Shown here in pieces: positions 10,760 through 25,182 of a DNA stretch of 32,000 nt; the first letter of the stretch is position 1; every line of letters starts with the position of its first letter. Origin of the DNA: Microcystis aeruginosa NIES-2549 (GTDB lineage Bacteria; Cyanobacteriota; Cyanobacteriia; Cyanobacteriales; Microcystaceae); assembly GCF_000981785.2 (NCBI RefSeq), contig NZ_CP011304.1, positions 1,740,001 to 1,772,000 of the forward strand, written 5' to 3'. Under the pieces are notes generated by a model. It saw only the letters and a list, made by a program, of their open reading frames with translations. It searched no databases and was not told where the DNA came from. The position numbers and the translations under genes are program-made.

Positions 10760-11839
10760 TCATTCCGAAATAACTAAATAAACTTCTAATCCTCTTTGAC
10801 CTTCTTTGTCAAATTTTAAGCCTATTTCAGAATCTTTTATCTCTCTGATTGGAATTCTTCGGCGAGGGGTATTTTTGCCATTTTTATTAATTTGAATACT
10901 TTCAATAATAGCATTTTGACATATTTTTTTATTTTCACTGACTAAAAAAACTTTTTTACCGACTTCTAGTCTTTTATTGGGTTCCTGTGGCTCATCTGAT
11001 ATTTTGATAGCACAGGCTTTTTTTTGTTGATACCAATTGACAATTTCACCGAGCTTTTGAAGCTTTCCTATCTTTTTCTTCCTATCAACAAAGCAATAAA
11101 GAACTAATTCACTCATAGCTTGACATATAGCTTCGACAAAATCACATAATTGTAGTAACTCATTGGCATTAAGAACGGTATCTATTTCTTTACCATGAGC
11201 AGAATTATTACGAAGTTCTATAAAATTCTTTAATTCATTTTCCACACTACCCCTACTATTATTGTCAATAAAATTCTTAACTTCTTTATGATTTTCTATC
11301 CATTGCCAAGAATCAGTTGCAGATATGCCAGCATCGACTAAAAGTCTGGTTAATTGATCTTTTCTCAGATTAGCTTCATGTAACAAAAAAGCAGCTGATG
11401 TGAGATTATATTTAGTTGTATTTTTGTATTCAGTATCAAATAAATTTTTGATAATGTCCCTCTCTGAAAGAGAATCGAAGCGATTTCTTTTATTTTCATT
11501 GCCCAGTAATGTAGCACAACCAGTCTGATGCTTATTTCTTACAGATTCAGGTAAATCTTGATAGCAACTATATAATTGAGGCAGCAAAATAATCCAATCT
11601 CCCACTAGATTTTCGACAAAATTTTCGTAAAGAGCATATAACCTTGTGATAGATGAACAATGATCGTTAACTAGCCACTTGTCTCCTAAAGGAGCATTTG
11701 CTTGAAGATATTTTAAGTCTTCTGTGTTGAGTTGTGAAGGATTATCCGCAATAATTTCTCTAAGTTTTTCACTGATATTAATTATTGATCGAATGGTCTT
11801 TATCTCATCCTTTAGGTTATTTAAAAGTCCTTCAAACAT
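10760..11839 (-). CDS. HEPN-like nuclease (R-x4-H motif; resembles the MAE_28990/MAE_18760 HEPN family) with a beta-rich C-terminal extension
   Basis: Mostly helical N-terminal ~250 aa containing ELRNNSAHG (Arg codon 11212-11210, His codon 11197-11195). Very AT-rich. ATG at 11839-11837 lies 2 nt after the stop of the upstream DUF262 gene. The track starts at TTG 11845, which would give a 4-nt overlap. Confidence 0.75.
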   Translation of the reverse strand: MFEGLLNNLKDEIKTIRSIINISEKLREIIADNPSQLNTEDLKYLQANAPLGDKWLVNDHCSSITRLYALYENFVENLVGDWIILLPQLYSCYQDLPESVRNKHQTGCATLLGNENKRNRFDSLSERDIIKNLFDTEYKNTTKYNLTSAAFLLHEANLRKDQLTRLLVDAGISATDSWQWIENHKEVKNFIDNNSRGSVENELKNFIELRNNSAHGKEIDTVLNANELLQLCDFVEAICQAMSELVLYCFVDRKKKIGKLQKLGEIVNWYQQKKACAIKISDEPQEPNKRLEVGKKVFLVSENKKICQNAIIESIQINKNGKNTPRRRIPIREIKDSEIGLKFDKEGQRGLEVYLVISE

Positions 11840-11841
11840 TC

Positions 11842-13053
11842 TCAAATACTCTGCTTAAGAACTCGTTGAATCAGAGAATCAAAAATTTGAATACGAGCTT
11901 TAAAATCATCTTTGGTATCCCCTTCTCCGGTGAAAAGTCCTTTTTTTAATTTTTTATCTTGATGAGTAATTCCCTGGGAATCTTGAGTAAATAAGCTGAT
12001 AGTTTCATCAATTATCGCTGATTTTCTAGTAATTAATTCTTGATAATCAGATAAATGGTTACTGAAACTGATCATCACTGCATCATAGTAAACTTTATAA
12101 GCTTTCGATTTATGTGTTTTGGTTTTACTATCGAAAGGCTTGAATAACTGATCCTGATAAATGTTAGATACTAACTCTATAGTTTGGTTAAATACTTGCT
12201 CGAACTCTTGGATATTCTCGTCGGAAAAATTAAGACTTTTTTTCATCATATAATTATCCAGATAGTTAGATAAATTACCTGTATATTTGTCAATATCCCT
12301 CAGGGCAAAAAAACGGAGGATTAATTCTACATCTTCCATCTTTTTATAAAATCGATTTTTTTTTAGTTCTTCTTTATCATCAATAGGAATATCCCAAGCT
12401 TTAGCAAAAATAGTATTCTCAGAAAGCTTTAATAAAAGTTCATTGAATTTCCCAGAGTAAAGACAGTTTCTTATTTCTTGTCGACTCAAAGATACACCTC
12501 CTGTATTGAGGCGTTCAAAAACCAGTTGTTTTAAAGATAAAGCTTCCTCTGTATCCGATAGAGACTCGGTAATAACAACTATAGTTGAAATGGCTCGTCG
12601 ATTGATACCATCTTTGATTTTTGCAGGAAGACTTTCATAGGTTCTTCCTTCTAATTCAGGCCAGATCTCTAACCCTGTTAATTTTAATTTGTTATTATAA
12701 AAATTCTCAATTGCTGTGATTCTTTGTTGACCATCCATTACTTGATATGAGTTATAGGAAGTTTCATAGAGAATCAGAGGAGGTACGGGAATATTCATCA
12801 AAAAAGATTCAATTAGTCTCGATTGTTTTTGTGCGTCCCAGCGATCCCGTCTCTGATAGAAAGGACGCTTTTTCACATAGTTAGGTTTATTTAAAGACTC
12901 AGCAAAACTAGGCAATTTTTCTCGATTCATTTCTAATAATATTCTTCGTTCACCTTGTTCATATTTTTCATTAATTTCATTATCTGATAATTTTTTAACA
13001 TCCTTTCGGGAACGTTTTTGCCAAGGATTTGTTTTAGTTTGTGAGATTGTCAT
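11842..13053 (-). CDS. DUF262 (ParB/Srx-like, GmrSD N-terminal type) domain protein without a DUF1524 nuclease half
   Basis: Hallmark string FYQRRDRWDAQKQSRLIESFLMNIPVPPLILYE...YQVMDGQQRITAIENFY (DGQQR motif). No His-Me/HNH-like motif seen in the C-terminal half. AT-rich. Confidence 0.8.
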   Translation of the reverse strand: MTISQTKTNPWQKRSRKDVKKLSDNEINEKYEQGERRILLEMNREKLPSFAESLNKPNYVKKRPFYQRRDRWDAQKQSRLIESFLMNIPVPPLILYETSYNSYQVMDGQQRITAIENFYNNKLKLTGLEIWPELEGRTYESLPAKIKDGINRRAISTIVVITESLSDTEEALSLKQLVFERLNTGGVSLSRQEIRNCLYSGKFNELLLKLSENTIFAKAWDIPIDDKEELKKNRFYKKMEDVELILRFFALRDIDKYTGNLSNYLDNYMMKKSLNFSDENIQEFEQVFNQTIELVSNIYQDQLFKPFDSKTKTHKSKAYKVYYDAVMISFSNHLSDYQELITRKSAIIDETISLFTQDSQGITHQDKKLKKGLFTGEGDTKDDFKARIQIFDSLIQRVLKQSI

Positions 13054-18603: not shown

Positions 18604-18990
18604 AATTAAGAATTTGTCCAGAAAGTTTTACCTTACTTTACATTGTCGCTTAATTTTGGCGATTTCAGTGATCGGTGATCAGAACCGAGGCTGCAGATCA
18701 ATTTTTGTCAATCTACTGATACCATTTTTCTCAAGTAATGGCAGAGATGGTTAATTTCCCTTCCCCCCAACCCCGGTCCGGCGAAGGGAAGAGGCGAGTA
18801 GGATGCCTGCCACGAATAAAGAAAAATGCTATCAGCCAATTACTTTGAGAGTTAAGCAGTAAGCGTTGGGGTGGTTGGGTGTCGCTTTTTCAATTGAATT
18901 AATACGTTTTCTCCTAAGTATTGTTTCGCTCAAACCAACCTACGAGGCTGCTCCCTAATTAGATTTAATTGGGCTAACCTACTTCCCAAT

Positions 18991-19191
18991 TGTGTTAGCA
19001 TCAGAGATAAGTATAAAACAGCCGAACGATTAAAGCGGGACTATTGGCTCTATGTGGTGTTTAACTGTGGGACAATGTCGGAAGTTTATGTCATTCGAGA
19101 TGCGGTTACGCTAGGACGGCAACCTGTTACAAGCATTGAACATTATCAGCTTCGACTAGAGGCAATTCTACGGCAGGATGAACGGGAATGA
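18991..19191 (+). pseudogene. C-terminal remnant of a helicase/restriction-associated nuclease-like (DUF3883-type) protein
   Basis: An open frame ends at TGA 19189-19191 and overlaps the next ATG (ATGA). It translates ...KYKTAERLKRDYWLYVVFNCGTMSEVYVIRDAVTLGRQPVTSIEHYQLRLEAILRQDERE. The ..A..L...YWLYVV....P.vy.I.dP pattern is the typical C-terminal end of such nuclease domains. There is no plausible start codon and no upstream body (stop at 18895-18897). Confidence 0.5.
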
Positions 19192-21170
19192 AGATCAGCA
19201 AAATTCAGATTAAAAATTTTAAGTCTTTTCAAAATGTTACCGTAGATTTAGATCCTGATTTTAATGTCTTTACTGGGGTTAATAATTCAGGAAAAACCAA
19301 TTTGCTAGAGGCGATCGCTCTTTGGCATGAGTGTTTTAACTTCTTGTTATACCAAGCAATTCGTGCTAAACCTGAACGTTATCGAGCGGGGCATTATGTT
19401 TTTAAAGATACTCAGTATTTACTTTACACAGATGTAAAAACGGTTCGTAGTTCTAATATTGATGACTTATTTTATCAGTGCGATAAAAGTCAAAAAATTG
19501 AATTAATCTTTATCTTTCAAGACATATATTCTGAGCAAAGACCAAACCCATTATTAAAGATTGGTTTTTCAATTACAAATTCCCATGGCAACAGCTACAA
19601 GCTAGAATTTTTAAATCGTCAAGATTTTGATTTTTTTCAGTTTAACCAACTATTTCATAATTTTCCTAAAGCAATTGGCTGTTCTTTTGCTTCTCCTGTT
19701 GCAACGATTAGAGCAGACGAAAGATTTTTAACTACTCCGCAGGTACTAGAAGCAATTCAAAAGCGAGAATCGGTTGAAGTCATTCGTAATCGTCTATACA
19801 CTCTTCATAGTGATCAAGCAGATCCTCAATTGTATGAGAGATTTAAGCGCGATTTGTCGTATATTCTCTTTGATAGCCCTAGTGCAGAGGTTAGCTTTTT
19901 TACTTCTAGTGATTTTCGGGATGATGTCAAAGTTATTATTAATTACAAAATTGATAATCGTGATATAGAAAAAGATATTTCTTTACTGGGAAGTGGGACA
20001 ATACAGATTATTGTAATTTTATTAAATTTATATTCTTTTGGGCAAAGAAATGATCTCAATTTGATTCTTTTTGATGAGCCTGATAGTCATATTCATCGTG
20101 ACATACAGAGTCGGCTAATCAATACACTGCTTAGATTCTCTGAGACAACACAAATTTTTTTAACAACTCATAATGAAAGTTTAATTCGACAGGTTTCTTT
20201 ACATCAATTATTTCATCTGGAAAATAGACCTCAATATAATTATAATGCTTTATCTCGACAAGAACTTCCCGTAGAGCCACGCTTTAAAGGAATTTATCCC
20301 TCTGCGCTAAATCCTATTATTAGTTCTTTAGGGAATAGTAATGGTTTAGATTTTATTAATGCCGTTGAAGCGGATAAAATCATTTTTGTCGAAGGTCAGG
20401 ATGATGCAAAAGCAATTTATACGTTATTACAAAAGAATACTATTGGTATAAATACAAAAAAATATTCTTTCTGGGTGATGGGCGGAGTCTCTCAAATTTT
20501 TAAGGATTTACCTAGTTATAAAAAGATTTTTCAGTTAATTAAAAATCAGCAGAATTTATGGCAAAAATCTGTGTTAATTTTTGATAGAGATTTCTTAAAT
20601 GACGACCATAAAAATCTAATTATAAATAATTTAAATAATCGGTTTAATTTGCCAACTTATATCCCAAGTGCATATACGTTTGAATCTATTTTATTGACAG
20701 ATTTTGATAAATTAGGTAGGTTACTTTTTCTGTGGTTAAGTCACCAGCAAAATTCGATTTCAGTGGATGCCGTAAGTCTTGCTCAAGGTCTTAAACAAGC
20801 CTATCTGAACTATATGAATCCCAAATTAGAGCAATTACTCAATGATAATGAGGCATTTGAACAAATCATCTATCAATGCCGCTCTATTCGGGATAAGCTT
20901 AAGAGTGATGATATGTTGGGTACAAATGATAGGTCAATTCCAGAAAATGATGTTCAATTATCAACTGCTTATCGCAACTATTTCAATCAAATTTTGAATA
21001 CACGGGATTTTTACAAGTATGCCAAAAAAGATGACGTTCAAGCAATTATCAATCAGGTGATCAGCCCTCATAATATAGCGTTTAATATTGAGCAGGATTT
21101 TATTGCTTTATTAGAATGCGTTGATCGCTCAACTTGGTTTGAGGAGTGGGATTTTTTAACGAGATTGTAG
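19188..21170 (+). CDS. ABC/SMC-like ATPase fused to a Toprim/DUF4435-like domain (OLD-family, GajA-like or fused-PARIS-like nuclease)
   Basis: IKNFKSF...FTGVNNSGKTNLLEAI gives Walker A at 19275-19298. Also seen are LLGSGTIQ, Walker B LILFDEPDSHIH (D296/E297 at 20073-20078) and FLTTHNESL. C-terminal IIFVEGQDD (Glu codon 20391-20393) and LIFDRDF (D-x-D at 20583-20591) are Toprim-like. Strongly AT-rich. Confidence 0.75.
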   Translation: MKISKIQIKNFKSFQNVTVDLDPDFNVFTGVNNSGKTNLLEAIALWHECFNFLLYQAIRAKPERYRAGHYVFKDTQYLLYTDVKTVRSSNIDDLFYQCDKSQKIELIFIFQDIYSEQRPNPLLKIGFSITNSHGNSYKLEFLNRQDFDFFQFNQLFHNFPKAIGCSFASPVATIRADERFLTTPQVLEAIQKRESVEVIRNRLYTLHSDQADPQLYERFKRDLSYILFDSPSAEVSFFTSSDFRDDVKVIINYKIDNRDIEKDISLLGSGTIQIIVILLNLYSFGQRNDLNLILFDEPDSHIHRDIQSRLINTLLRFSETTQIFLTTHNESLIRQVSLHQLFHLENRPQYNYNALSRQELPVEPRFKGIYPSALNPIISSLGNSNGLDFINAVEADKIIFVEGQDDAKAIYTLLQKNTIGINTKKYSFWVMGGVSQIFKDLPSYKKIFQLIKNQQNLWQKSVLIFDRDFLNDDHKNLIINNLNNRFNLPTYIPSAYTFESILLTDFDKLGRLLFLWLSHQQNSISVDAVSLAQGLKQAYLNYMNPKLEQLLNDNEAFEQIIYQCRSIRDKLKSDDMLGTNDRSIPENDVQLSTAYRNYFNQILNTRDFYKYAKKDDVQAIINQVISPHNIAFNIEQDFIALLECVDRSTWFEEWDFLTRL

Positions 21171-21180
21171 AATTTTAACC

Positions 21181-21291
21181 ATGATGACCTACCCTAAACG
21201 ACTGATCGAAGTTGACCTACCCATTAAGGGAATTTCTGCCCATGCGCGGCGGTAAAAATCGATTCGTCATGGGCATATTTCTACACTTCAT
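21181..21291 (+). pseudogene. N-terminal remnant of a DUF1156-type DNA methyltransferase, with an in-frame stop and then truncation
   Basis: [36 protein letters not shown] with TAA at 21253-21255, where intact family members have REK. The LIEV.LP...IS...REKSIRHGH.STLH string is the DUF1156 N-terminal signature. Homology stops after STLH (the expected WWARRP is absent). Confidence 0.65.
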
Positions 21292-21381
21292 AGCGCAGCT
21301 TGACGGTGGGAGTATGTCAATGAATTTGCCAAGCAAACTGATTACTGTTCACTAAAAAAGCTGCGCCGCTGCCCGTTAAAA

Positions 21382-23034
21382 TTAACTAAAGTGAGGCATA
21401 AGAGTCAAAACTCCCAAGTCTAAATCTTTACTATCGATCGATTTTGCCTCGTAGAGGGCTAACATATCGTTTAATTGGGGATTACCGCAGGAGGAACCAG
21501 TTACCCCCATGGCAACAATCAAACCACAATAACCCTCGGTATTTTTGATGCGTTTTTGCCAATTGCGGCGAGCATTACGGTGGTCGGGATCATCTTGCTC
21601 GAATTCCCCAAACAGATAGAGATCACCGTTAGCCATTTTCAGAATCCCGAGATCATAACGGGTATCTTCTAAGGGATCTTCGCCGGGGTTAAAACCAATA
21701 GCCTCCAAACCGCCAGCTTGTTGGATTTTTTCGATCAGTTCCTTGGCTTTCGGTCGGGAGGTCTGGATCATAACCACGGGGAAACCCTCTCCTTTTGTCG
21801 GTACGGACTGGGGTTGATAATGGATCTTCGGCCGATTGCGAATTTTATCCAATAATTGCCAGGGAACCATTCCCAGACTCAGATGTGCATTATCAGGGAC
21901 TAGATTCTCCTTGAGTACGGATTCTTCCTCATCATCATCCTCATCATCATCGTCGTCGTCGTCGTCCTCCTCTAAGAGTTGCATAAATTCCGCACATAGA
22001 TCGGGCATCGTGGCTACCGTCACCGCCACGGTTTCCCCTTTTGCTTGTTCGGGATCGAGGGGAATGCGAAAACGACGCTGTAATTCTCCGATTGGTTCTT
22101 CCGATAAAGCGGATTGATTGCCTTTCAAAAAGCGCAACAGAGCCATTAAAGCTAAATATACCGTGATTGCTTCTTCTTCATCTAAATAGGGGCGAATACC
22201 TTCGTAGGGATGCACGCTGCCAAAAACCGGATGAATCTGGGAGGGGGCAGCCGAGGCCAGATCGTAGTCATCCTCATCATCGTCCTCGTCATCATCGGCC
22301 AATTCGTAGCTTAAAAACCAGCAATCTTGGGAAAGAAAGGCTTTTTCTAATCTTTCCATCGATTTTTCTTCTAAAGCGGCCTGCCGGAATTGTTTGAGGG
22401 ATGCTAGGGAACGATAGAGAATGACTCCGTATTCCCGACCGAGCATTCCCATGATACAGGCGTAAAGATACGGGAAATCGGGGCGATCGATCTTAATTTC
22501 CAAGATATCGTAATCAGCTAAACAGGACCAGGGTTCAGCTTTCCAAATTTCGTGAGCGGTTTTCACCAAAGCGGACTGCCAAGCGGGGGGAATTGCCGGG
22601 GGGCGGTTATTTTGGAATTCCTCGAATCCGCGAAAGAGATCATCGATCAGGGGCAAACTGGGGACATAATCGATGGTGATATCGAGATCTTGCAGTACCC
22701 CGCGCAGGAAAAACTGTGTTTCTCGATCGCGGACGATAATTTTTTTCGGTCTGGCTGGCCGGGCGGGATTTTGGGGTGTTTCGATGGCGCGGATTAAGGT
22801 TCTCACCATGGCCTCGGGCCCGGTTTCGGGGGAAACTACTTCCATAGCGCGTACACAGCCCTCGCTGCCATCCACCCAGATCACGCACTCGCCGCCGCTT
22901 TCTTGATTTGGTTCTAGGGTGGCCCGGGGCATTCTCTCGGATAAGGATAAAGCACGACGATCTCCTTCCCAAACGCTGGGAATTTGTGGGATTTTTTTGA
23001 GGCGGCTTTGGGTCGTCCGGGGCAGAAGATTCAT
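21382..23034 (-). CDS. Hypothetical protein (550 aa) with two poly-Asp/Glu tracts
   Basis: Long ORF with backbone-like composition. Acidic runs DDDEDDDEDDYD (22261-22296) and EEDDDDDDDDEDDDEEE (21922-21972). No catalytic motif recognised. It lies 75 nt downstream of the caspase-like gene on the same strand. Confidence 0.7.
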   Translation of the reverse strand: MNLLPRTTQSRLKKIPQIPSVWEGDRRALSLSERMPRATLEPNQESGGECVIWVDGSEGCVRAMEVVSPETGPEAMVRTLIRAIETPQNPARPARPKKIIVRDRETQFFLRGVLQDLDITIDYVPSLPLIDDLFRGFEEFQNNRPPAIPPAWQSALVKTAHEIWKAEPWSCLADYDILEIKIDRPDFPYLYACIMGMLGREYGVILYRSLASLKQFRQAALEEKSMERLEKAFLSQDCWFLSYELADDDEDDDEDDYDLASAAPSQIHPVFGSVHPYEGIRPYLDEEEAITVYLALMALLRFLKGNQSALSEEPIGELQRRFRIPLDPEQAKGETVAVTVATMPDLCAEFMQLLEEDDDDDDDDEDDDEEESVLKENLVPDNAHLSLGMVPWQLLDKIRNRPKIHYQPQSVPTKGEGFPVVMIQTSRPKAKELIEKIQQAGGLEAIGFNPGEDPLEDTRYDLGILKMANGDLYLFGEFEQDDPDHRNARRNWQKRIKNTEGYCGLIVAMGVTGSSCGNPQLNDMLALYEAKSIDSKDLDLGVLTLMPHFS

Positions 23035-23109
23035 CGGGAAATTTAGGGGTAGCTGTGTTAGGATTTTAACCTTTTCTTTTCAAGGATTCCATAGAATCAT
23101 TCTATCGAT

Positions 23110-25182
23110 TTAGTCGATAACTTGATAAATAAACCGGAAACCTGACCAAGTTCCCAGATCAAAGGCGTATTCATCAATTAAACTGCCAGAACTATCCATT
23201 TTCAAGCCTAAATCTAATTTTAGATCGCTCCAGAAAGCTCTGGCTATTTCTAGGGGGTTAGTCAGGGTGAGCAGTTGGGTTGCTTCTCCCTTGAGGCTTT
23301 GAGTGGCATTGAGAAGGGTTAAGGTGTTGGGGAAAGGATGGCGACTGAGGATCAGGAGATGTTCTCTGATGCCCTTGGCTTGACTAATTTTCCAATGCCC
23401 TTGGCGGTCATTGGGGATGGTGGCCTTGGTTTTGTCCGCCACGACAAAGGGGGCTAATGGGCTGGAATTGCTGAACTTATCGGGGTTTTCTGGACGGGAA
23501 CAGTATAAAAACGGTTGGCGATCGCTGTCGAGGACAAGGATCAGTGCGTAGAGGGGTTGTTCTTCTTGATTCTCGATTTGATAGCGAATTTCCGTACCGA
23601 CGGGCAGAATTAAGTCATTTTTAGCGGTATTAGCCCCCCTGCTACCCGCAATTTTTTGGGTTTGTACCGTGGAGATATAGGTTTGATCGAGGCTTTCCAG
23701 GGTGACAATGACGGCTAAACCGGAGGATTCTTGATTGATCAACAAGTGCCACAATTTGCAGGCCAGCAGGGTTTCTAGTTGCGATTGCAGTCGTTTAATC
23801 CCCGATTTAATTGCTTCGTTGGCCGCCCCTAAACTACCGATAATTAGGGAGCCATTAGGAGATAATAACTGATAATTGCCAGTTTCTTCGCTACCAACTC
23901 GACTTAAGAGACAATCTACCGTTTGTTCGCCAATGTTAACCACGGCGGCCACATCGGGCAAACTGGCAAAGGTACTGGTAGCATCTACCCGTTCAATCCG
24001 GGTTAAGTTACTATCCAAACCGACGATTAAGCCGATTTTACTCGGAAAAACCCGCAATTTTTCCTCTAGAATCTGTCCTATTTCTAGGGAAGCAGCGGCG
24101 GATAATAATTGCGCTTTCGCTTTTAAACCCTGACGGGAGAGAATTTGTAGGCTGATTTCCTCCCCAGTCGCCTCAATAAAGCTCAAACAGGAGTTAATCC
24201 CGTAATTTTCTAGGATTTCTAAGGGCAGGCCGACCAGATTGACTTCTAGGGTGCGTTCATCAATAAGATTTGTAACAATTGCCGCTCCACCCCTTGACTT
24301 TTCTGGCTGTATATGATATGGCGGCGCAGAATTATTTTGATTACCGGTCAGGATTGCCGGTTGCTGTTGTTCACTGCTGTGACTAGCGACGAGATGACGG
24401 AGACGGGGAAAAGCGATCGCAATTGTCGGACTGGGGCAAGCTTGCCAGAGATACTGGGTGAGATCATAGGTGAATAAGCCGGCATTGGGGCTATTACCGC
24501 TCAATTCCAGGGCGATTTGCTCTGGTTTAGCGGCAGCGAGAATAACGCCGTTACTAGACTTATTTTTGAGGTTAAAACGGGTTTTAATATCGGCAGCGAA
24601 AGTTAATTCGGCGGGGTTAAGATCAGTAATGGTTCTAGAATAGGAACGAATGCGAAGATTACCGAGATAGGGCTGAGGTTGGGGGAGATGACTACTATCA
24701 AAAATCAAGCTAAACTTATCCGTAGCTAGACAGCGAGCCATCAGCAGGATATTTTCCTTAAGTAAAGCATTTTCTGCCCCATCAGCAGTAATAAAAACTT
24801 CTTTTCTGTCCCCAACACTGCCATAACCACTAAAGTGAAAAATGACCACATCCCCTGCCTTGGCTTGGGCGATCAGGTGTTCTAAAAAAGCCGCTTCGAT
24901 CGCTTCTCGACTGGCTTGTTGTCCCGTTAAAGTCACTATATCAGCATCCTGAAAACCAAAACGATAACGGAGAAGGTCTTTTTGTAACTCCACATCGGTA
25001 AGACAACCGGGCAGCGGCGGAATATTCGCCCCATACTGGTCAATACCGACTAAAAGAGCCAATTTTCGGGGATTAGGGGCGGCGAGAGCGGCCAAATGAC
25101 GGTTAAGGGTCCCTTGACTAATCGCCAAAGTCAGCAACCCCCAACCTGTCTGCTGGATCAATTCTCGCCTAGTTATGTTCAT
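23110..25182 (-). CDS. Caspase-fold (peptidase C14, orthocaspase-like) protein with a Tat-type signal and substituted catalytic dyad (pseudo-orthocaspase)
   Basis: MNITRRELIQQTGWGLLTLAIS...ALAAP is a twin-arginine signal. KLALLVGIDQY...GDVVIFHFSGYGS and SLIFDSSH align to the caspase p20 motifs HFSGHG and D(x)CHSG. His is replaced by Tyr (codon 24825-24823) and Cys by Ser (codon 24693-24691). A ~500-aa C-terminal region is unassigned. Confidence 0.8.
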   Translation of the reverse strand: MNITRRELIQQTGWGLLTLAISQGTLNRHLAALAAPNPRKLALLVGIDQYGANIPPLPGCLTDVELQKDLLRYRFGFQDADIVTLTGQQASREAIEAAFLEHLIAQAKAGDVVIFHFSGYGSVGDRKEVFITADGAENALLKENILLMARCLATDKFSLIFDSSHLPQPQPYLGNLRIRSYSRTITDLNPAELTFAADIKTRFNLKNKSSNGVILAAAKPEQIALELSGNSPNAGLFTYDLTQYLWQACPSPTIAIAFPRLRHLVASHSSEQQQPAILTGNQNNSAPPYHIQPEKSRGGAAIVTNLIDERTLEVNLVGLPLEILENYGINSCLSFIEATGEEISLQILSRQGLKAKAQLLSAAASLEIGQILEEKLRVFPSKIGLIVGLDSNLTRIERVDATSTFASLPDVAAVVNIGEQTVDCLLSRVGSEETGNYQLLSPNGSLIIGSLGAANEAIKSGIKRLQSQLETLLACKLWHLLINQESSGLAVIVTLESLDQTYISTVQTQKIAGSRGANTAKNDLILPVGTEIRYQIENQEEQPLYALILVLDSDRQPFLYCSRPENPDKFSNSSPLAPFVVADKTKATIPNDRQGHWKISQAKGIREHLLILSRHPFPNTLTLLNATQSLKGEATQLLTLTNPLEIARAFWSDLKLDLGLKMDSSGSLIDEYAFDLGTWSGFRFIYQVID

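What the first reader, a model, noticed from the sequence alone, without database searches (positions are those of the whole stretch)
19188..21170. Stand-alone ATPase + Toprim/DUF4435-like protein (OLD / GajA / fused-PARIS-like) in a second AT-rich islet
The 660-aa protein has an SMC/ABC-type ATPase. Its elements are Walker A GVNNSGKT, a ~230-aa insertion, LLGSGTIQ, Walker B LILFDEPDSH, and H-loop-like TTHNESL.

A C-terminal region follows with IIFVEGQDD and LIFDRDF, the Glu and D-x-D pattern of Toprim metal sites. This pattern is found in OLD-family nucleases, Gabija GajA, and the DUF4435 (AriB) half of PARIS.

No UvrD-like partner (GajB) or separate AriB gene is adjacent. It is therefore either a class-1-like solitary OLD nuclease or a compact fused PARIS-like variant. 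The composition is much more AT-rich than the neighbouring msrA and the 550-aa gene, consistent with horizontal acquisition.
Basis: partly seen in the sequence, partly recalled or inferred. Interest (0 to 1): 0.7.

Follow-up and report, generated by a model that had tools for sequence, protein, structure and literature searches.

The report
Orphaned ATPase–Toprim phage-defence nuclease gene
This Microcystis gene encodes a one-protein ATP-driven sensor fused to a Toprim nuclease, a known kind of anti-phage module; it is the only surviving piece of a larger helicase–methylase–ATPase (Hma) defence operon whose flanking genes were deleted.

Summary
A 660-aa ORF lies at 19188-21170(+), every quoted motif is at the stated residues, and GC is 0.32 against 0.46-0.49 in the neighbours.

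- **N-terminal half (1-335):** a solid OLD/AriA-type ABC ATPase (AAA_15 3e-27; PADLOC AriA 6e-24).
- **C-terminal half:** a Toprim domain of the DUF4435/AriB branch. A confident AF2 model (pLDDT 87) has AriB as its best PDB match (prob 0.92-0.97), followed by class 2 OLD Toprims. Five invariant acidic residues (E402, D406, D466, D468, E499) match AriB's E26/D30/D88/E90/E122 in spacing. Direct profile hits are all below threshold.

"Stand-alone" is only superficially true. The gene is flanked by the last ~56 codons of an hmaA helicase and the first ~40 codons of a DUF1156 hmaB methylase. An 80%-identical copy on a Picosynechococcus plasmid sits inside an intact hmaA-X-hmaB-NTase-hmaC operon.

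Elsewhere the family is mostly solitary and sometimes sits inside Type III RM operons. ATPase-Toprim modules embedded in Hma/BREX-like systems are already published (HEC-01/HEC-04; "OLD-ABC backup effectors").

Verdict: a real, probably functional defence gene (dN/dS 0.2-0.35, mosaic alleles). It is a new member of a known kind, of modest interest.

The parts
19188..21170 (+). Intact 660-aa gene: ABC ATPase fused to a Toprim nuclease domain and a C-terminal helical domain
   Evidence: ORF. Full-length homologs at 34-99% identity. dN/dS 0.2-0.35 among Microcystis alleles.
19188..20192 (+). ABC (OLD/AriA-type) ATPase head, residues 1-335: Walker A K36, Q-loop Q185, signature LLGSGT 266-271, Walker B D296/E297, H-loop H328
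   Evidence: AAA_15 3.4e-27 and AAA_21 6.2e-17, covering residues 25-333. PADLOC AriA 5.9e-24 over the whole profile. PDB sequence hits to PtuA, AriA, GajA and Rad50. Foldseek PtuA/GajA/TsOLD at 1e-13. These residues are invariant.
19344..19970 (+). Variable insert within the ATPase (residues 53-261); candidate sensor/dimerisation region
   Evidence: 33-67% identity and dS>2 against allele L006, while the C-terminal half of the same pair is identical. Payne et al. propose that ABC inserts set trigger specificity. The sensor role is an inference.
20268..20342 (+). Flexible linker, residues 361-385
   Evidence: pLDDT below 50 in the full-length AF2 model.
20370..20702 (+). Toprim core (residues ~395-505) with invariant acidic residues E402, D405, D406, D466, D468, D472 and E499
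   Evidence: - The strand/helix order fits a Toprim fold, with E402 after strand 1 and D466-x-D468 after strand 3.
- Sub-threshold Pfam hits: DUF3226 8e-5, Toprim 1.7e-3, OLD-like_TOPRIM 3.7e-3.
- PADLOC mad4 2e-4, AriB 7.6e-3, HEC-01B 0.02.
- Best Foldseek matches are AriB, then class 2 OLD.
- Residue spacing matches AriB E26/D30/D88/E90/E122.
20703..21167 (+). C-terminal all-helical domain (residues ~506-660) ending in the conserved VD+STWFxEWDFL motif
   Evidence: AF2 helices at pLDDT above 90. Invariant D646, W650 and W654. The Foldseek alignment to AriB spans essentially the whole of both proteins. Function unknown.
19003..19191 (+). Relic 3' end of an hmaA-type helicase gene (NOV_C/DUF3883-like tail, '...KRDYWLYVVFNCG...'); its stop codon overlaps the ATG of the ATPase gene (ATGA)
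   Evidence: tblastn of the plasmid HmaA residues 1051-1106 of 1112 gives 61% identity, E 5e-17. Pfam NOV_C 5e-4, matching the profile's end. No usable start codon in the window. The same stub is present in all Microcystis loci.
21181..21303 (+). Relic 5' end of a DUF1156 (hmaB) adenine-methylase gene, with an in-frame stop at 21253-21255 (HARR*KS) and truncated after about 40 codons
   Evidence: Pfam DUF1156 1.5e-5, 25.4 bits against a cutoff of 24. PADLOC HmaB 1.9e-9. tblastn of the plasmid DUF1156 N-terminus residues 1-37 gives 92% identity, E 2e-18.

Best explanation
The gene encodes a single-chain member of the OLD-type ABC-ATPase + Toprim nuclease superfamily. It belongs to a compact, always-fused family whose Toprim domain is closest to AriB/DUF4435.

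**Origin (shown).** It entered the Microcystis lineage as an accessory cassette embedded between hmaA (helicase) and hmaB (DUF1156 methylase) of an Hma / 'Type-1 BREX-related' operon. Both sides of that operon were later deleted. What remains is a 2.3-kb fragment: a helicase tail, this intact gene and a methylase stub, lying between msrA and a DUF6930 gene.

**Likely mechanism (inferred from characterised relatives).**
- The ATPase head dimerises and binds or hydrolyses ATP.
- Its variable insert (residues 53-261) senses an infection cue, plausibly a phage anti-restriction or DNA-end-related signal.
- That event licenses the C-terminal two-metal Toprim site (E402, D406, D466, D468, E499) to cut nucleic acid. 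This either destroys phage DNA directly or aborts the infection.
- The substrate is unresolved. DNA is the precedent in OLD, GajA and HEC-04. tRNA is the precedent in AriB.

Because most family members elsewhere are solitary, the module is probably autonomous. That would explain why it survived the loss of Hma.
For: **Architecture**
- ATPase half: AAA_15 3e-27, AAA_21 6e-17, PADLOC AriA 6e-24, mad3 5e-22, HEC-01A 1e-20. The full-length model aligns with GajA, TsOLD and retron-Eco8 OLD over 555-860 columns at about 1e-12 to 1e-13.
- C-terminal model: pLDDT 87, pTM 0.86. The top seven PDB matches are all AriB or class 2 OLD Toprim regions, with AriB at prob 0.92-0.97.
- The acidic pentad is invariant in 22 homologs and matches AriB's published active site in order and spacing.
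- Distant stand-alone relatives of the C-terminal profile hit Pfam DUF4435: 27.0 bits against a cutoff of 27, and E 1.3e-4.

**Origin**
- The hmaA tail and hmaB stub were identified by profile and by tblastn.
- An intact hmaA-X-hmaB-NTase-hmaC operon surrounds the 80%-identical plasmid copy (PADLOC HmaA/B/C at 1e-100 to 1e-186).
- DNA similarity stops exactly at the relic edges, window 19025-21292.
- The same relics occur in all 10 Microcystis loci examined.

**Function retained**
- dN/dS is 0.2-0.35.
- The gene body is 70-99% identical between strains, while the flanking relics are 96-99% identical.

**Autonomy**
- About 65 of 80 species-level loci lack Hma parts.
- Only about 15 of 131 immediate neighbours are defence genes.
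- No neighbour is conserved across taxa.

**Literature**
- ABC ATPase-TOPRIM modules are the commonest Hma-embedded family, and the fused HEC-04 defends in a Walker-A- and E/D/D-dependent way (10.1101/2024.01.29.577857).
- OLD-ABC+TOPRIM 'backup effectors' occur in at least 1242 taxa of BREX and BREX-related systems (PMC12839542).
Against: - No profile for the C-terminal half reaches a curated threshold for this protein.
- Foldseek E-values for the domain are only 0.02-0.09, and TM-scores are 0.3-0.42.
- No defence activity has been shown for this family. The two-gene analogue HEC-01 gave no protection in E. coli.
- No consensus promoter was found in the 580 nt upstream now that the operon's 5' part is gone, so expression in Microcystis is unproven.
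- One strain carries a disrupted allele.
- Trigger, substrate and oligomeric state are pure inference.
Confidence: 0.72

Rival explanations
1. It is a genuine fused PARIS (AriA-AriB in one chain). It would act as an anti-anti-restriction sensor that detects Ocr-like inhibitors of the neighbouring methylation-based system and responds by cleaving host tRNA, causing abortive infection.
For: - The best PADLOC hit of the N-terminal half is AriA, matched end to end.
- The best structural match of the C-terminal half is AriB in two independent structures, spanning the whole protein.
- The acidic pentad matches AriB.
- AriA/AriB fusions are known to occur.
- Embedding inside Hma and Type III RM operons fits a 'guard of restriction systems' role, as proposed in PMC12839542.
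Against: - The PADLOC AriAB fusion model scores only 63.8 bits, with its best stretch at residues 1-47. AriB scores 14.4 bits.
- Pfam DUF4435 does not hit this protein.
- AriA, mad3, HEC-01A, NsnB, PtuA, GajA and Old all score within 67-84 bits, so the AriA hit is not specific.
- PARIS works by releasing AriB from an AriA hexamer so that it can dimerise. A covalent fusion cannot do this in the same way.
- The ATPase insert is predicted to be short and partly beta-stranded, not a long helical bundle.
Confidence: 0.2
2. It is a class 1 OLD nuclease in the strict sense (P2 Old / Thermus OLD / Vibrio OLD type): a solitary homodimeric DNA exo/endonuclease or nickase that acts directly on DNA.
For: - One-gene ATPase+Toprim architecture, and most family members are solitary.
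- Thermus OLD (6p74) aligns over 555 columns at E 8e-13.
- NCBI and JGI name close homologs 'ATP-dependent nuclease' or 'endonuclease of OLD family'.
Against: - Pfam OLD-like_TOPRIM scores 17-18 bits against a cutoff of 23.2.
- The PADLOC Old model's best stretch is only residues 1-45.
- The C-terminal domain is closer to AriB than to any OLD Toprim.
- The C-terminal profile search of 1.84 billion representatives listed only its own family and fragments among its 150 best hits, plus distant stand-alone relatives of DUF4435/DUF3226 type; none of those checked was OLD-like.
- The Microcystis, Picosynechococcus and Flavobacterium copies are or were embedded in multigene operons, which is not the class 1 definition.
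Confidence: 0.25
3. It is a non-functional leftover: a gene stranded by the deletions that destroyed the Hma operon, not yet decayed, with no present role.
For: - The flanking operon is destroyed.
- No consensus promoter lies upstream.
- One strain has an insertion with stop codons in the gene.
- In MADS the analogous mad3/mad4 act together with the other system genes.
Against: - The ORF is intact in 10 of 11 Microcystis loci, although the relic flanks are shared by all of them and so are old.
- dN/dS is 0.2-0.35, not about 1.
- Divergent alleles are maintained and exchanged between near-identical flanks.
- Most relatives in other phyla are solitary and intact.
Confidence: 0.1
4. It is a housekeeping SMC/RecF/Rad50-like DNA-repair ATPase, not a defence gene.
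For: Weak N-terminal matches to RecF, Rad50, SMC and SbcC models.
Against: - Those matches cover only the first ~45 residues (the P-loop) and lie far below the curated cutoffs.
- Distribution is patchy and strain-variable, GC is anomalous, and the gene is embedded in Hma and Type III RM operons.
- There are no coiled-coil arms.
Confidence: 0.02

Closest known systems
HEC-04 (Hma-embedded candidate 04; Payne et al., bioRxiv 10.1101/2024.01.29.577857)
   Same: A single polypeptide with an ABC ATPase fused to a C-terminal TOPRIM, found embedded in Hma operons. For HEC-04, defence requires the Walker A lysine and the E/D/D metal site. These correspond to the residue classes K36 and E402/D466/D468 here.
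   Different: It is a different sequence family. HEC-04 is absent from the 25 best PADLOC hits of the whole protein, and no HEC-04 model hits the C-terminal half. HEC-04 numbering (K62, E319, D375, D377) implies a different length and spacing. HEC-04's Toprim was compared with BpOLD, whereas this one is closest to AriB.
HEC-01 (HEC-01A ATPase + HEC-01B TOPRIM) and MADS Mad3 + Mad4
   Same: The same two modules in the same kind of context, embedded in methylation-based multigene systems. PADLOC scores: HEC-01A 1.2e-20, mad3 5.3e-22, mad4 2.2e-4 (the best hit of the C-terminal half), HEC-01B 0.02. mad3 and mad4 are accessory yet needed for MADS defence, and mad3 contributes to self-toxicity when the methylase is removed.
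   Different: Those are two separate genes, while this family is always fused. Scores are far below family-member level (NCBIfam MADS3 46 bits against a cutoff of 420). HEC-01 gave no defence in the published assay.
PARIS (AriA + AriB; OLD 'class 4')
   Same: The OLD-type ABC ATPase matches AriA end to end. The DUF4435-branch Toprim plus helical C-terminal domain is the best structural match. The five acidic active-site residues have the same order and spacing.
   Different: The domains are fused rather than separate. The AriAB, AriB and DUF4435 profiles are not met at member level. The release-and-dimerise activation of AriB cannot apply unchanged. Trigger and substrate are unknown. The family was not found in phages or satellites.
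OLD family nucleases class 1 (P2 Old, Thermus scotoductus OLD) and class 2 (GajA)
   Same: An N-terminal ABC ATPase with an insert, a C-terminal Toprim with a two-metal acidic site, and a full-length structural alignment at about 1e-12 to 1e-13. Most family members are solitary, as in class 1.
   Different: OLD-like_TOPRIM is below threshold. There is no GajB partner. The Toprim domain is nearer to AriB. The window copy derives from an operon-embedded cassette.
Hma system = Type-1 DUF499-centred BREX-related system (HmaA helicase-nuclease, HmaB DUF1156 methylase, HmaC DUF499 ATPase)
   Same: This is the ancestral genomic host of the gene. The hmaA 3' end and hmaB 5' end still flank it, and the intact arrangement is preserved on the Picosynechococcus plasmid and in L023.
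   Different: No functional Hma component remains in the window. tblastn with HmaA, HmaB and HmaC finds nothing else in the 32 kb.

Membership tests
OLD-type ABC ATPase superfamily (AAA_15/AAA_21) | Walker A, Q-loop, signature motif, Walker B D-E and H-loop in ABC order; profile match above threshold | tested here: met
   AAA_15 96.5 bits (cutoff 32.1) and AAA_21 63 bits (cutoff 27) over residues 25-333. K36, Q185, LLGSG, D296/E297 and H328 are invariant. Structural matches to PtuA, GajA and TsOLD at 1e-13.
Toprim fold nucleases | Conserved Glu after strand 1 and D-x-D after strand 3 of a four-stranded alpha/beta core; profile or structural match | tested here: met
   The motifs are invariant and placed after strands 397-401 and 461-464 of a confident model. 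The top seven Foldseek hits are all Toprim nucleases, with prob up to 0.97. Caveat: Pfam Toprim reaches only 16.8-18.9 bits against a cutoff of 23.1, so this is met by structure and motif, not by sequence threshold.
OLD family, class 1 | OLD-type Toprim domain (PF20469 / PADLOC Old model) | tested here: inconclusive
   OLD-like_TOPRIM 17.1-18.2 bits against a cutoff of 23.2. PADLOC Old 66.7 bits, but its best stretch is residues 1-45. BpOLD and XccOLD C-terminal regions rank 3-7 in Foldseek, prob 0.25-0.72.
OLD family, class 1 | Single gene, not part of a multigene defence operon | tested here: inconclusive
   No intact partner is present now, and most distant homologs are solitary. However, this copy is flanked by hmaA and hmaB relics, and its closest non-Microcystis homolog is embedded in Hma.
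Gabija (class 2 OLD, GajA) | [quoted passage not shown] | tested here: not met
   The neighbours are msrA and DUF6930/DUF7309. No conserved helicase neighbour of GajB type appears in 80 loci.
Retron-associated OLD (class 3) | Adjacent reverse transcriptase and ncRNA | tested here: not met
   No RT is among the neighbouring ORFs in the window or the homolog loci. An ncRNA was not searched for specifically.
PARIS (AriA/AriB) | AriA-type ABC ATPase | tested here: inconclusive
   PADLOC AriA is the best hit, 83.5 bits over profile positions 1-373 of 373. Six other ATPase families score 67-77 bits, so the hit is not specific.
PARIS (AriA/AriB) | AriB = DUF4435 Toprim protein (profile match) | tested here: not met
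   There is no Pfam DUF4435 hit for this protein at E<=10. PADLOC AriB scores 14.4 bits, E 7.6e-3. The link is only transitive: distant relatives P0269 and P0262 hit DUF4435.
PARIS (AriA/AriB) | AriB-like structure and acidic active site (E26, D30, D88, E90, E122) | tested here: met
   AriB chains 8v46_D and 8ux9_A are the top Foldseek hits, with prob 0.92-0.97 over 314-322 columns. E402/D406/D466/D468/E499 are invariant with matching spacing. The TM-score is only 0.37-0.42.
PARIS (AriA/AriB) | Activation by anti-restriction proteins (Ocr, Stp) and tRNA cleavage | not testable with these tools
   This needs genetics and biochemistry.
HEC-04 (fused ATPase-TOPRIM, Hma-embedded) | Match to the HEC-04 model | tested here: not met
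   HEC-04 is not among the 25 best PADLOC families for the whole protein (all at least 56 bits). No HEC-04 hit was found for the C-terminal half at E<=10.
HEC-04 (fused ATPase-TOPRIM, Hma-embedded) | Architecture (ABC ATPase + C-terminal TOPRIM in one chain) and embedding in Hma | tested here: met
MADS Mad3/Mad4 | Equivalog-level match to MAD3; presence of the core genes mad6-8 | tested here: not met
   NCBIfam antiphage_MADS3 scores 46 bits against a cutoff of 420. The window has no MADS core genes.
Hma / Type-1 BREX-related system | Intact HmaA helicase, HmaB DUF1156 methylase and HmaC DUF499 ATPase | tested here: not met
   Only 56 codons of hmaA and about 40 codons of hmaB remain, the latter with a stop codon. 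No hmaC is found anywhere in the window.

The most novel reading that the evidence does not exclude
The family may be a covalently fused, AriB-type 'guard' module. It would be recruited repeatedly into the middle of methylation-based restriction operons (Hma, Type III RM) to sense phage anti-restriction factors. It would also be able to work alone, so that in Microcystis it outlived the system it once guarded and now acts as an autonomous tRNA- or DNA-cutting abortive-infection gene. Its sensor insert would be swapped between strains by recombination across the conserved operon relics. If so, it would be a natural example of a backup effector becoming a stand-alone immune gene, and a fused PARIS variant whose activation cannot rely on releasing the nuclease.
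Probability: 0.2. Interest if true: 0.55.

Novelty: new member of a known kind. Interest (0 to 1): 0.32.

Why it matters
Microcystis is a major bloom-forming cyanobacterium with an unusually large defence repertoire, and cyanophage resistance shapes its blooms. This locus shows how defence operons decay: an embedded accessory module can survive the loss of its host system, stay under selection, and keep exchanging alleles between strains.

For the field, the family is an untested, compact, always-fused ATPase-Toprim lineage. It lies between OLD and PARIS and could show how a fused AriB-like nuclease is regulated. The kind of module and its embedding in Hma/BREX-like systems are already published, and public annotation already calls close homologs "ATP-dependent nuclease". 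The conceptual gain is therefore incremental.

Tried and rejected
- **Sequence route to the C-terminal domain.** Pfam, PADLOC and NCBIfam scans of the whole protein and of the C-terminal half gave only sub-threshold Toprim-type hits. A family profile against PDB sequences gave only a weak hit to the small Toprim protein 1T6T, E 0.043. The profile searched against 1.84 billion representatives did not reach AriB, GajA or OLD.
- **Full-length fold search.** It was dominated by the ATPase head and said little about the C-terminus, so a separate C-terminal model was made.
- **Viral comparisons.** The BFVD structure library gave nothing significant. tblastn against 50,697 phage records gave no match.
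- **Conserved partner gene.** All-against-all clustering of flanking ORFs in 80 loci found none beyond lineage-specific synteny.
- **Promoter and terminator scan.** No upstream promoter and no convincing terminator were found; this is uninformative for cyanobacteria.
- **P0018 lookup.** The exact-sequence lookup failed, so the plasmid context was reached through PLSDB instead.
- **Functional small upstream ORF.** The 87-101 aa upstream ORF called in some strains was considered as a possible partner. It was rejected because it is just the last part of the helicase, lacks the upstream catalytic region, and has no start codon in the window.
- **Housekeeping RecF/SMC/Rad50 role.** Rejected, because the matches cover only the P-loop.


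Full report
**1.

The window contains a 660-aa ORF at 19188-21170 on the + strand.
- Walker A GVNNSGKT, residues 30-37 (K36)
- signature-like LLGSGTIQ, 266-273
- Walker B LILFDEPDSH, 292-301
- H-loop TTHNESL, 326-332
- IIFVEGQDD, 398-406 (E402, D405, D406)
- LIFDRDF, 463-469 (D466, D468)

The gene's GC is 0.32. msrA is 0.463, the 550-aa gene is 0.494, and the window as a whole is 0.436. Close homologs at 95-99% identity come from Microcystis. Full-length homologs run down to about 34% identity across Cyanobacteriota, Bacteroidota, Ignavibacteria and some Proteobacteria. The ORF is clearly a real gene.

**2. N-terminal half**

Residues 1-335 form an ABC ATPase of the OLD/AriA/PtuA/GajA type.
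- Pfam AAA_15 scores 3.4e-27 and AAA_21 scores 6.2e-17 across residues 25-333.
- PADLOC gives AriA 5.9e-24 end to end, mad3 5.3e-22, HEC-01A 1.2e-20, NsnB, PtuA, GajA and Old, all within 67-84 bits. The assignment is therefore to the superfamily, not to one named family.
- NCBIfam equivalogs (retron Eco8 effector, MADS3, PtuA, RecF, Rad50) match only the P-loop region and lie far below their cutoffs.
- A 22-sequence family profile hits only ATPase heads in PDB sequences.
- The full-length AF2 model (pLDDT 82) matches PtuA, GajA, Thermus OLD and retron-Eco8 OLD at 1e-12 to 1e-13. GajA, TsOLD and Eco8 are aligned over 555-860 columns.

**3. C-terminal half: the crux of the finding**

Sequence profiles alone are suggestive but all below threshold:
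- Pfam DUF3226 8e-5 (22.9 bits, cutoff 27), Toprim 1.7e-3, OLD-like_TOPRIM 3.7e-3, and no DUF4435 hit.
- PADLOC mad4 2.2e-4, AriB 7.6e-3, HEC-01B 0.02.

All of these are Toprim-type partners of OLD-like ABC ATPases, so the weak hits agree with each other.

A separate AF2 model of residues 380-660 is confident (pLDDT 87, pTM 0.86). It shows a strand/helix core followed by an all-helical domain. Against the PDB, its top seven matches are exclusively Toprim nucleases of this superfamily:
- AriB in two independent PARIS cryo-EM structures: 8v46_D (E 0.024, prob 0.92) and 8ux9_A (E 0.031, prob 0.97), 314-322 aligned columns, covering essentially all of AriB.
- The C-terminal regions of the class 2 OLD proteins of Burkholderia and Xanthomonas, prob 0.72-0.25.

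Nothing unrelated scores comparably. TM-scores are low (0.3-0.42), so this is a family-level resemblance, not a close one.

In the family alignment, E402, D405, D406, D466, D468, D472 and E499 are invariant. E402 follows strand 397-401 and D466-x-D468 follows strand 461-464, which are the canonical Toprim positions. AriB's published metal-site residues are E26, D30, D88, E90 and E122 (PMC11464382). The window protein's E402, D406, D466, D468 and E499 have almost the same spacings: +4, +60, +2, +31 against +4, +58, +2, +32.

The C-terminal profile was searched against 1.84 billion representative proteins. It finds only 176 clusters. Nearly all full-length hits are 630-690 aa with the domain at about residues 370-660, so the fusion is a fixed feature of a compact family. 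Two of the weakest, stand-alone hits bridge to Pfam DUF4435: P0269 at 27.0 bits (the gathering score), also matching DUF3226 at 26.1 bits, and P0262 at E 1.3e-4.

I conclude that the domain is a Toprim nuclease domain of the DUF4435/AriB branch.

**4. The gene is not simply stand-alone**

The 185 nt upstream encode, in frame and ending in an ATGA overlap with the start codon, '...VSIRDKYKTAERLKRDYWLYVVFNCG...RQDERE*'. The roughly 120 nt downstream encode '[36 protein letters not shown]'.
- The downstream piece is the N-terminus of a DUF1156 protein: Pfam 25.4 bits against a cutoff of 24, and PADLOC HmaB 1.9e-9.
- The upstream piece matches the extreme C-terminus of NOV_C/DUF3883.

The 80%-identical homolog lies on Picosynechococcus sp. 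PCC 7117 plasmid NZ_CP016481, inside an intact co-directional operon: helicase-related protein, this ATPase, DUF1156 protein, nucleotidyltransferase, DUF499 protein, AlkB. PADLOC identifies the flanking genes as HmaB (2.7e-103) and HmaC (6.7e-123). The equivalent helicase of locus L023 is HmaA (4.8e-186).

The plasmid helicase's residues 1051-1106 of 1112 align to window 19003-19170 (61% identity, E 5e-17). The plasmid DUF1156 residues 1-37 align to window 21181-21291 (92% identity, E 2e-18). Nucleotide similarity of 77.6% spans window 19025-21292 and nothing else.

The islet is therefore a 2.3-kb internal fragment of an Hma operon, consisting of a helicase tail, the embedded gene and a methylase stub. 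Hma is called 'Type-1 DUF499-centred BREX-related system' in PMC12839542.

The same two stubs flank the gene at the same msrA/DUF6930 site in all ten other Microcystis loci examined, so the truncation is old.

**5. The family elsewhere**

Among 80 species-level loci:
- Only L023 has an intact Hma set next to the gene, and about 65 have no Hma parts.
- Clustering of flanking ORFs finds no neighbour conserved across taxa.
- Of 131 immediate neighbours in 73 non-Microcystis loci, only about 15 hit defence models: 5 Type III methyltransferases, 5 Type III restriction enzymes, 2 Type I restriction enzymes, 2 HmaA/DrmD-like helicases and 3 mad3-like ATPases.

In a Flavobacterium/Chitinophagaceae group the gene sits tightly (2-16 bp gaps) between a Type III mod and a Type III res gene, with a Septu-like PtuA nearby. 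In Haliscomenobacter, Dolichospermum and another cyanobacterium it lies alone among housekeeping genes.

The family is thus mostly solitary, with repeated embedding in RM-like operons. It was not found in phage genomes. Even on the plasmid it is more AT-rich (0.34) than hmaA (0.43) and hmaB (0.49), so the low GC belongs to the cassette itself.

**6. Is the orphan alive?**

- The ORF is intact in 10 of 11 Microcystis loci. The L012 allele has an insertion of about 140 bp with stop codons just before LLGSGT.
- Pairwise dN/dS is 0.2-0.35 within Microcystis and 0.09 against the plasmid copy.
- The alleles are mosaic. Against L006, the ATPase insert (residues 53-261) is 33-67% identical with saturated dS, while the C-terminal half is identical. 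Against L016 and L029, the C-terminal helical region also diverges.
- The relic flanks are 96-99% identical in nucleotides, while the gene body is 70-99% identical. This points to allele exchange by recombination or to long-maintained divergent alleles, a pattern typical of defence genes.

No consensus promoter was found upstream, so expression remains unproven.

**7. Mechanism**

*Shown:* the domain architecture, the conserved catalytic-type residues, the origin in an Hma operon, and purifying selection.

*Inferred from relatives:* the ATPase head dimerises and uses ATP. Its variable insert senses an infection cue. The Toprim two-metal site then cuts nucleic acid. Relevant precedents are:
- HEC-04, a fused ATPase-TOPRIM embedded in Hma, protects E. 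coli from phages. It loses activity with Walker A or E/D/D mutations (10.1101/2024.01.29.577857).
- AriA senses Ocr and releases AriB, which then cleaves tRNA (PMC11464382).
- OLD and GajA cut DNA (PMC10568477).
- mad3 contributes to self-toxicity when the MADS methylase is absent (10.1101/2023.03.30.534895).

The substrate (DNA or tRNA), the trigger and the oligomeric state are open. A covalent fusion cannot use PARIS's release-and-dimerise switch unchanged.

**8. Comparison with what is known, and novelty**

The pattern of ABC ATPase-TOPRIM modules embedded in Hma is published.
- 62.7% of 1485 Hma systems carry embedded genes, and ABC ATPases with TOPRIM, NERD or PIN partners are the commonest family.
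- PMC12839542 describes TOPRIM-linked OLD-ABC 'backup effectors' in at least 1242 taxa of BREX and BREX-related systems.
- NCBI and JGI already name close homologs 'ATP-dependent nuclease' or 'endonuclease of OLD family'.

This particular family is not captured at member level by any PADLOC v2, Pfam or NCBIfam model tested. It is always fused, and its Toprim is AriB-like rather than OLD-like. I rate it a new member of a known kind.

The points of some interest are the clean example of an embedded module outliving its host operon, and the mosaic alleles between conserved relics. Interest 0.32.

Noticed in passing
window 10760-13053 (- strand): The first AT-rich islet (GC ~0.32) holds two genes that overlap by 4 bp: a 361-aa HEPN protein (HEPN_RiboL-PSP 1e-17, HEPN_MAE_28990 2e-14) and a 403-aa GmrSD_N/DUF262 protein (5e-26). 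It looks like another defence pair, lying between gpsA and the sulfite reductase gene. GmrSD-like and HEPN proteins are also among the published Hma-embedded candidates.
   Followed up: partly
L012:10001-12121 (Microcystis aeruginosa W13-11 MAG): This strain's allele of the ATPase-Toprim gene carries an insertion of about 140 bp containing several stop codons, immediately before the LLGSGT signature motif. It may be a small mobile element, and the gene is a pseudogene there.
   Followed up: partly
L005:6572-9619, L006:6013-9084, L007:113-2629; corresponding gap in window ~18604-19000: Other Microcystis strains carry an 838-1023-aa VWD/SdrD_B/Calx-beta/RTX-type gene between msrA and the Hma relic. 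It is absent from the window, so the msrA-DUF6930 interval is a variable hotspot.
   Followed up: no
L050:2042-15105 (Flavobacterium sp. MAG); similar in L052, L054, L055 and L072: A tight co-directional operon: helicase (947 aa), PtuA-like ATPase (444 aa), a 227-aa ORF, Type III methyltransferase (1024 aa), the ATPase-Toprim family gene (648 aa), and Type III restriction enzyme (1053 aa), with gaps of 2-16 bp. The family gene is embedded between mod and res.
   Followed up: partly
window 19003-19187 and 21171-21295, compared with 19188-21170: Among Microcystis strains the relic flanks are 96-99% identical in nucleotides, but the gene between them is only 70-99% identical. The divergence comes in blocks: the ATPase insert (residues 53-261) and the C-terminal helical region. 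This suggests allele or cassette exchange using the relics as homology arms.
   Followed up: partly
L010:16000-19001 (Picosynechococcus plasmid NZ_CP016481): The plasmid's hmaB is annotated as two overlapping ORFs, of 42 codons and 961 codons. The split falls at about the same residue (~42) where the Microcystis hmaB relic ends. It could be a frameshift, a sequencing error or a recombination-prone spot.
   Followed up: no
L023:9174-9887: In the one other locus with an intact Hma set, the family gene lies upstream of hmaA rather than between hmaA and hmaB. It is preceded by a 238-aa ORF beginning 'MTAIKRNIGIIGDGSTDIIIF', which was not identified. hmaB there is a 1346-aa fusion.
   Followed up: no
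window 21382-25182 (- strand): The 550-aa neighbour is a DUF6930/DUF7309 protein with long poly-Asp/Glu runs. The next gene is a 690-aa caspase-like Peptidase_C14 protein. Both are syntenic with ATP-sulfurylase across Microcystis.
   Followed up: no
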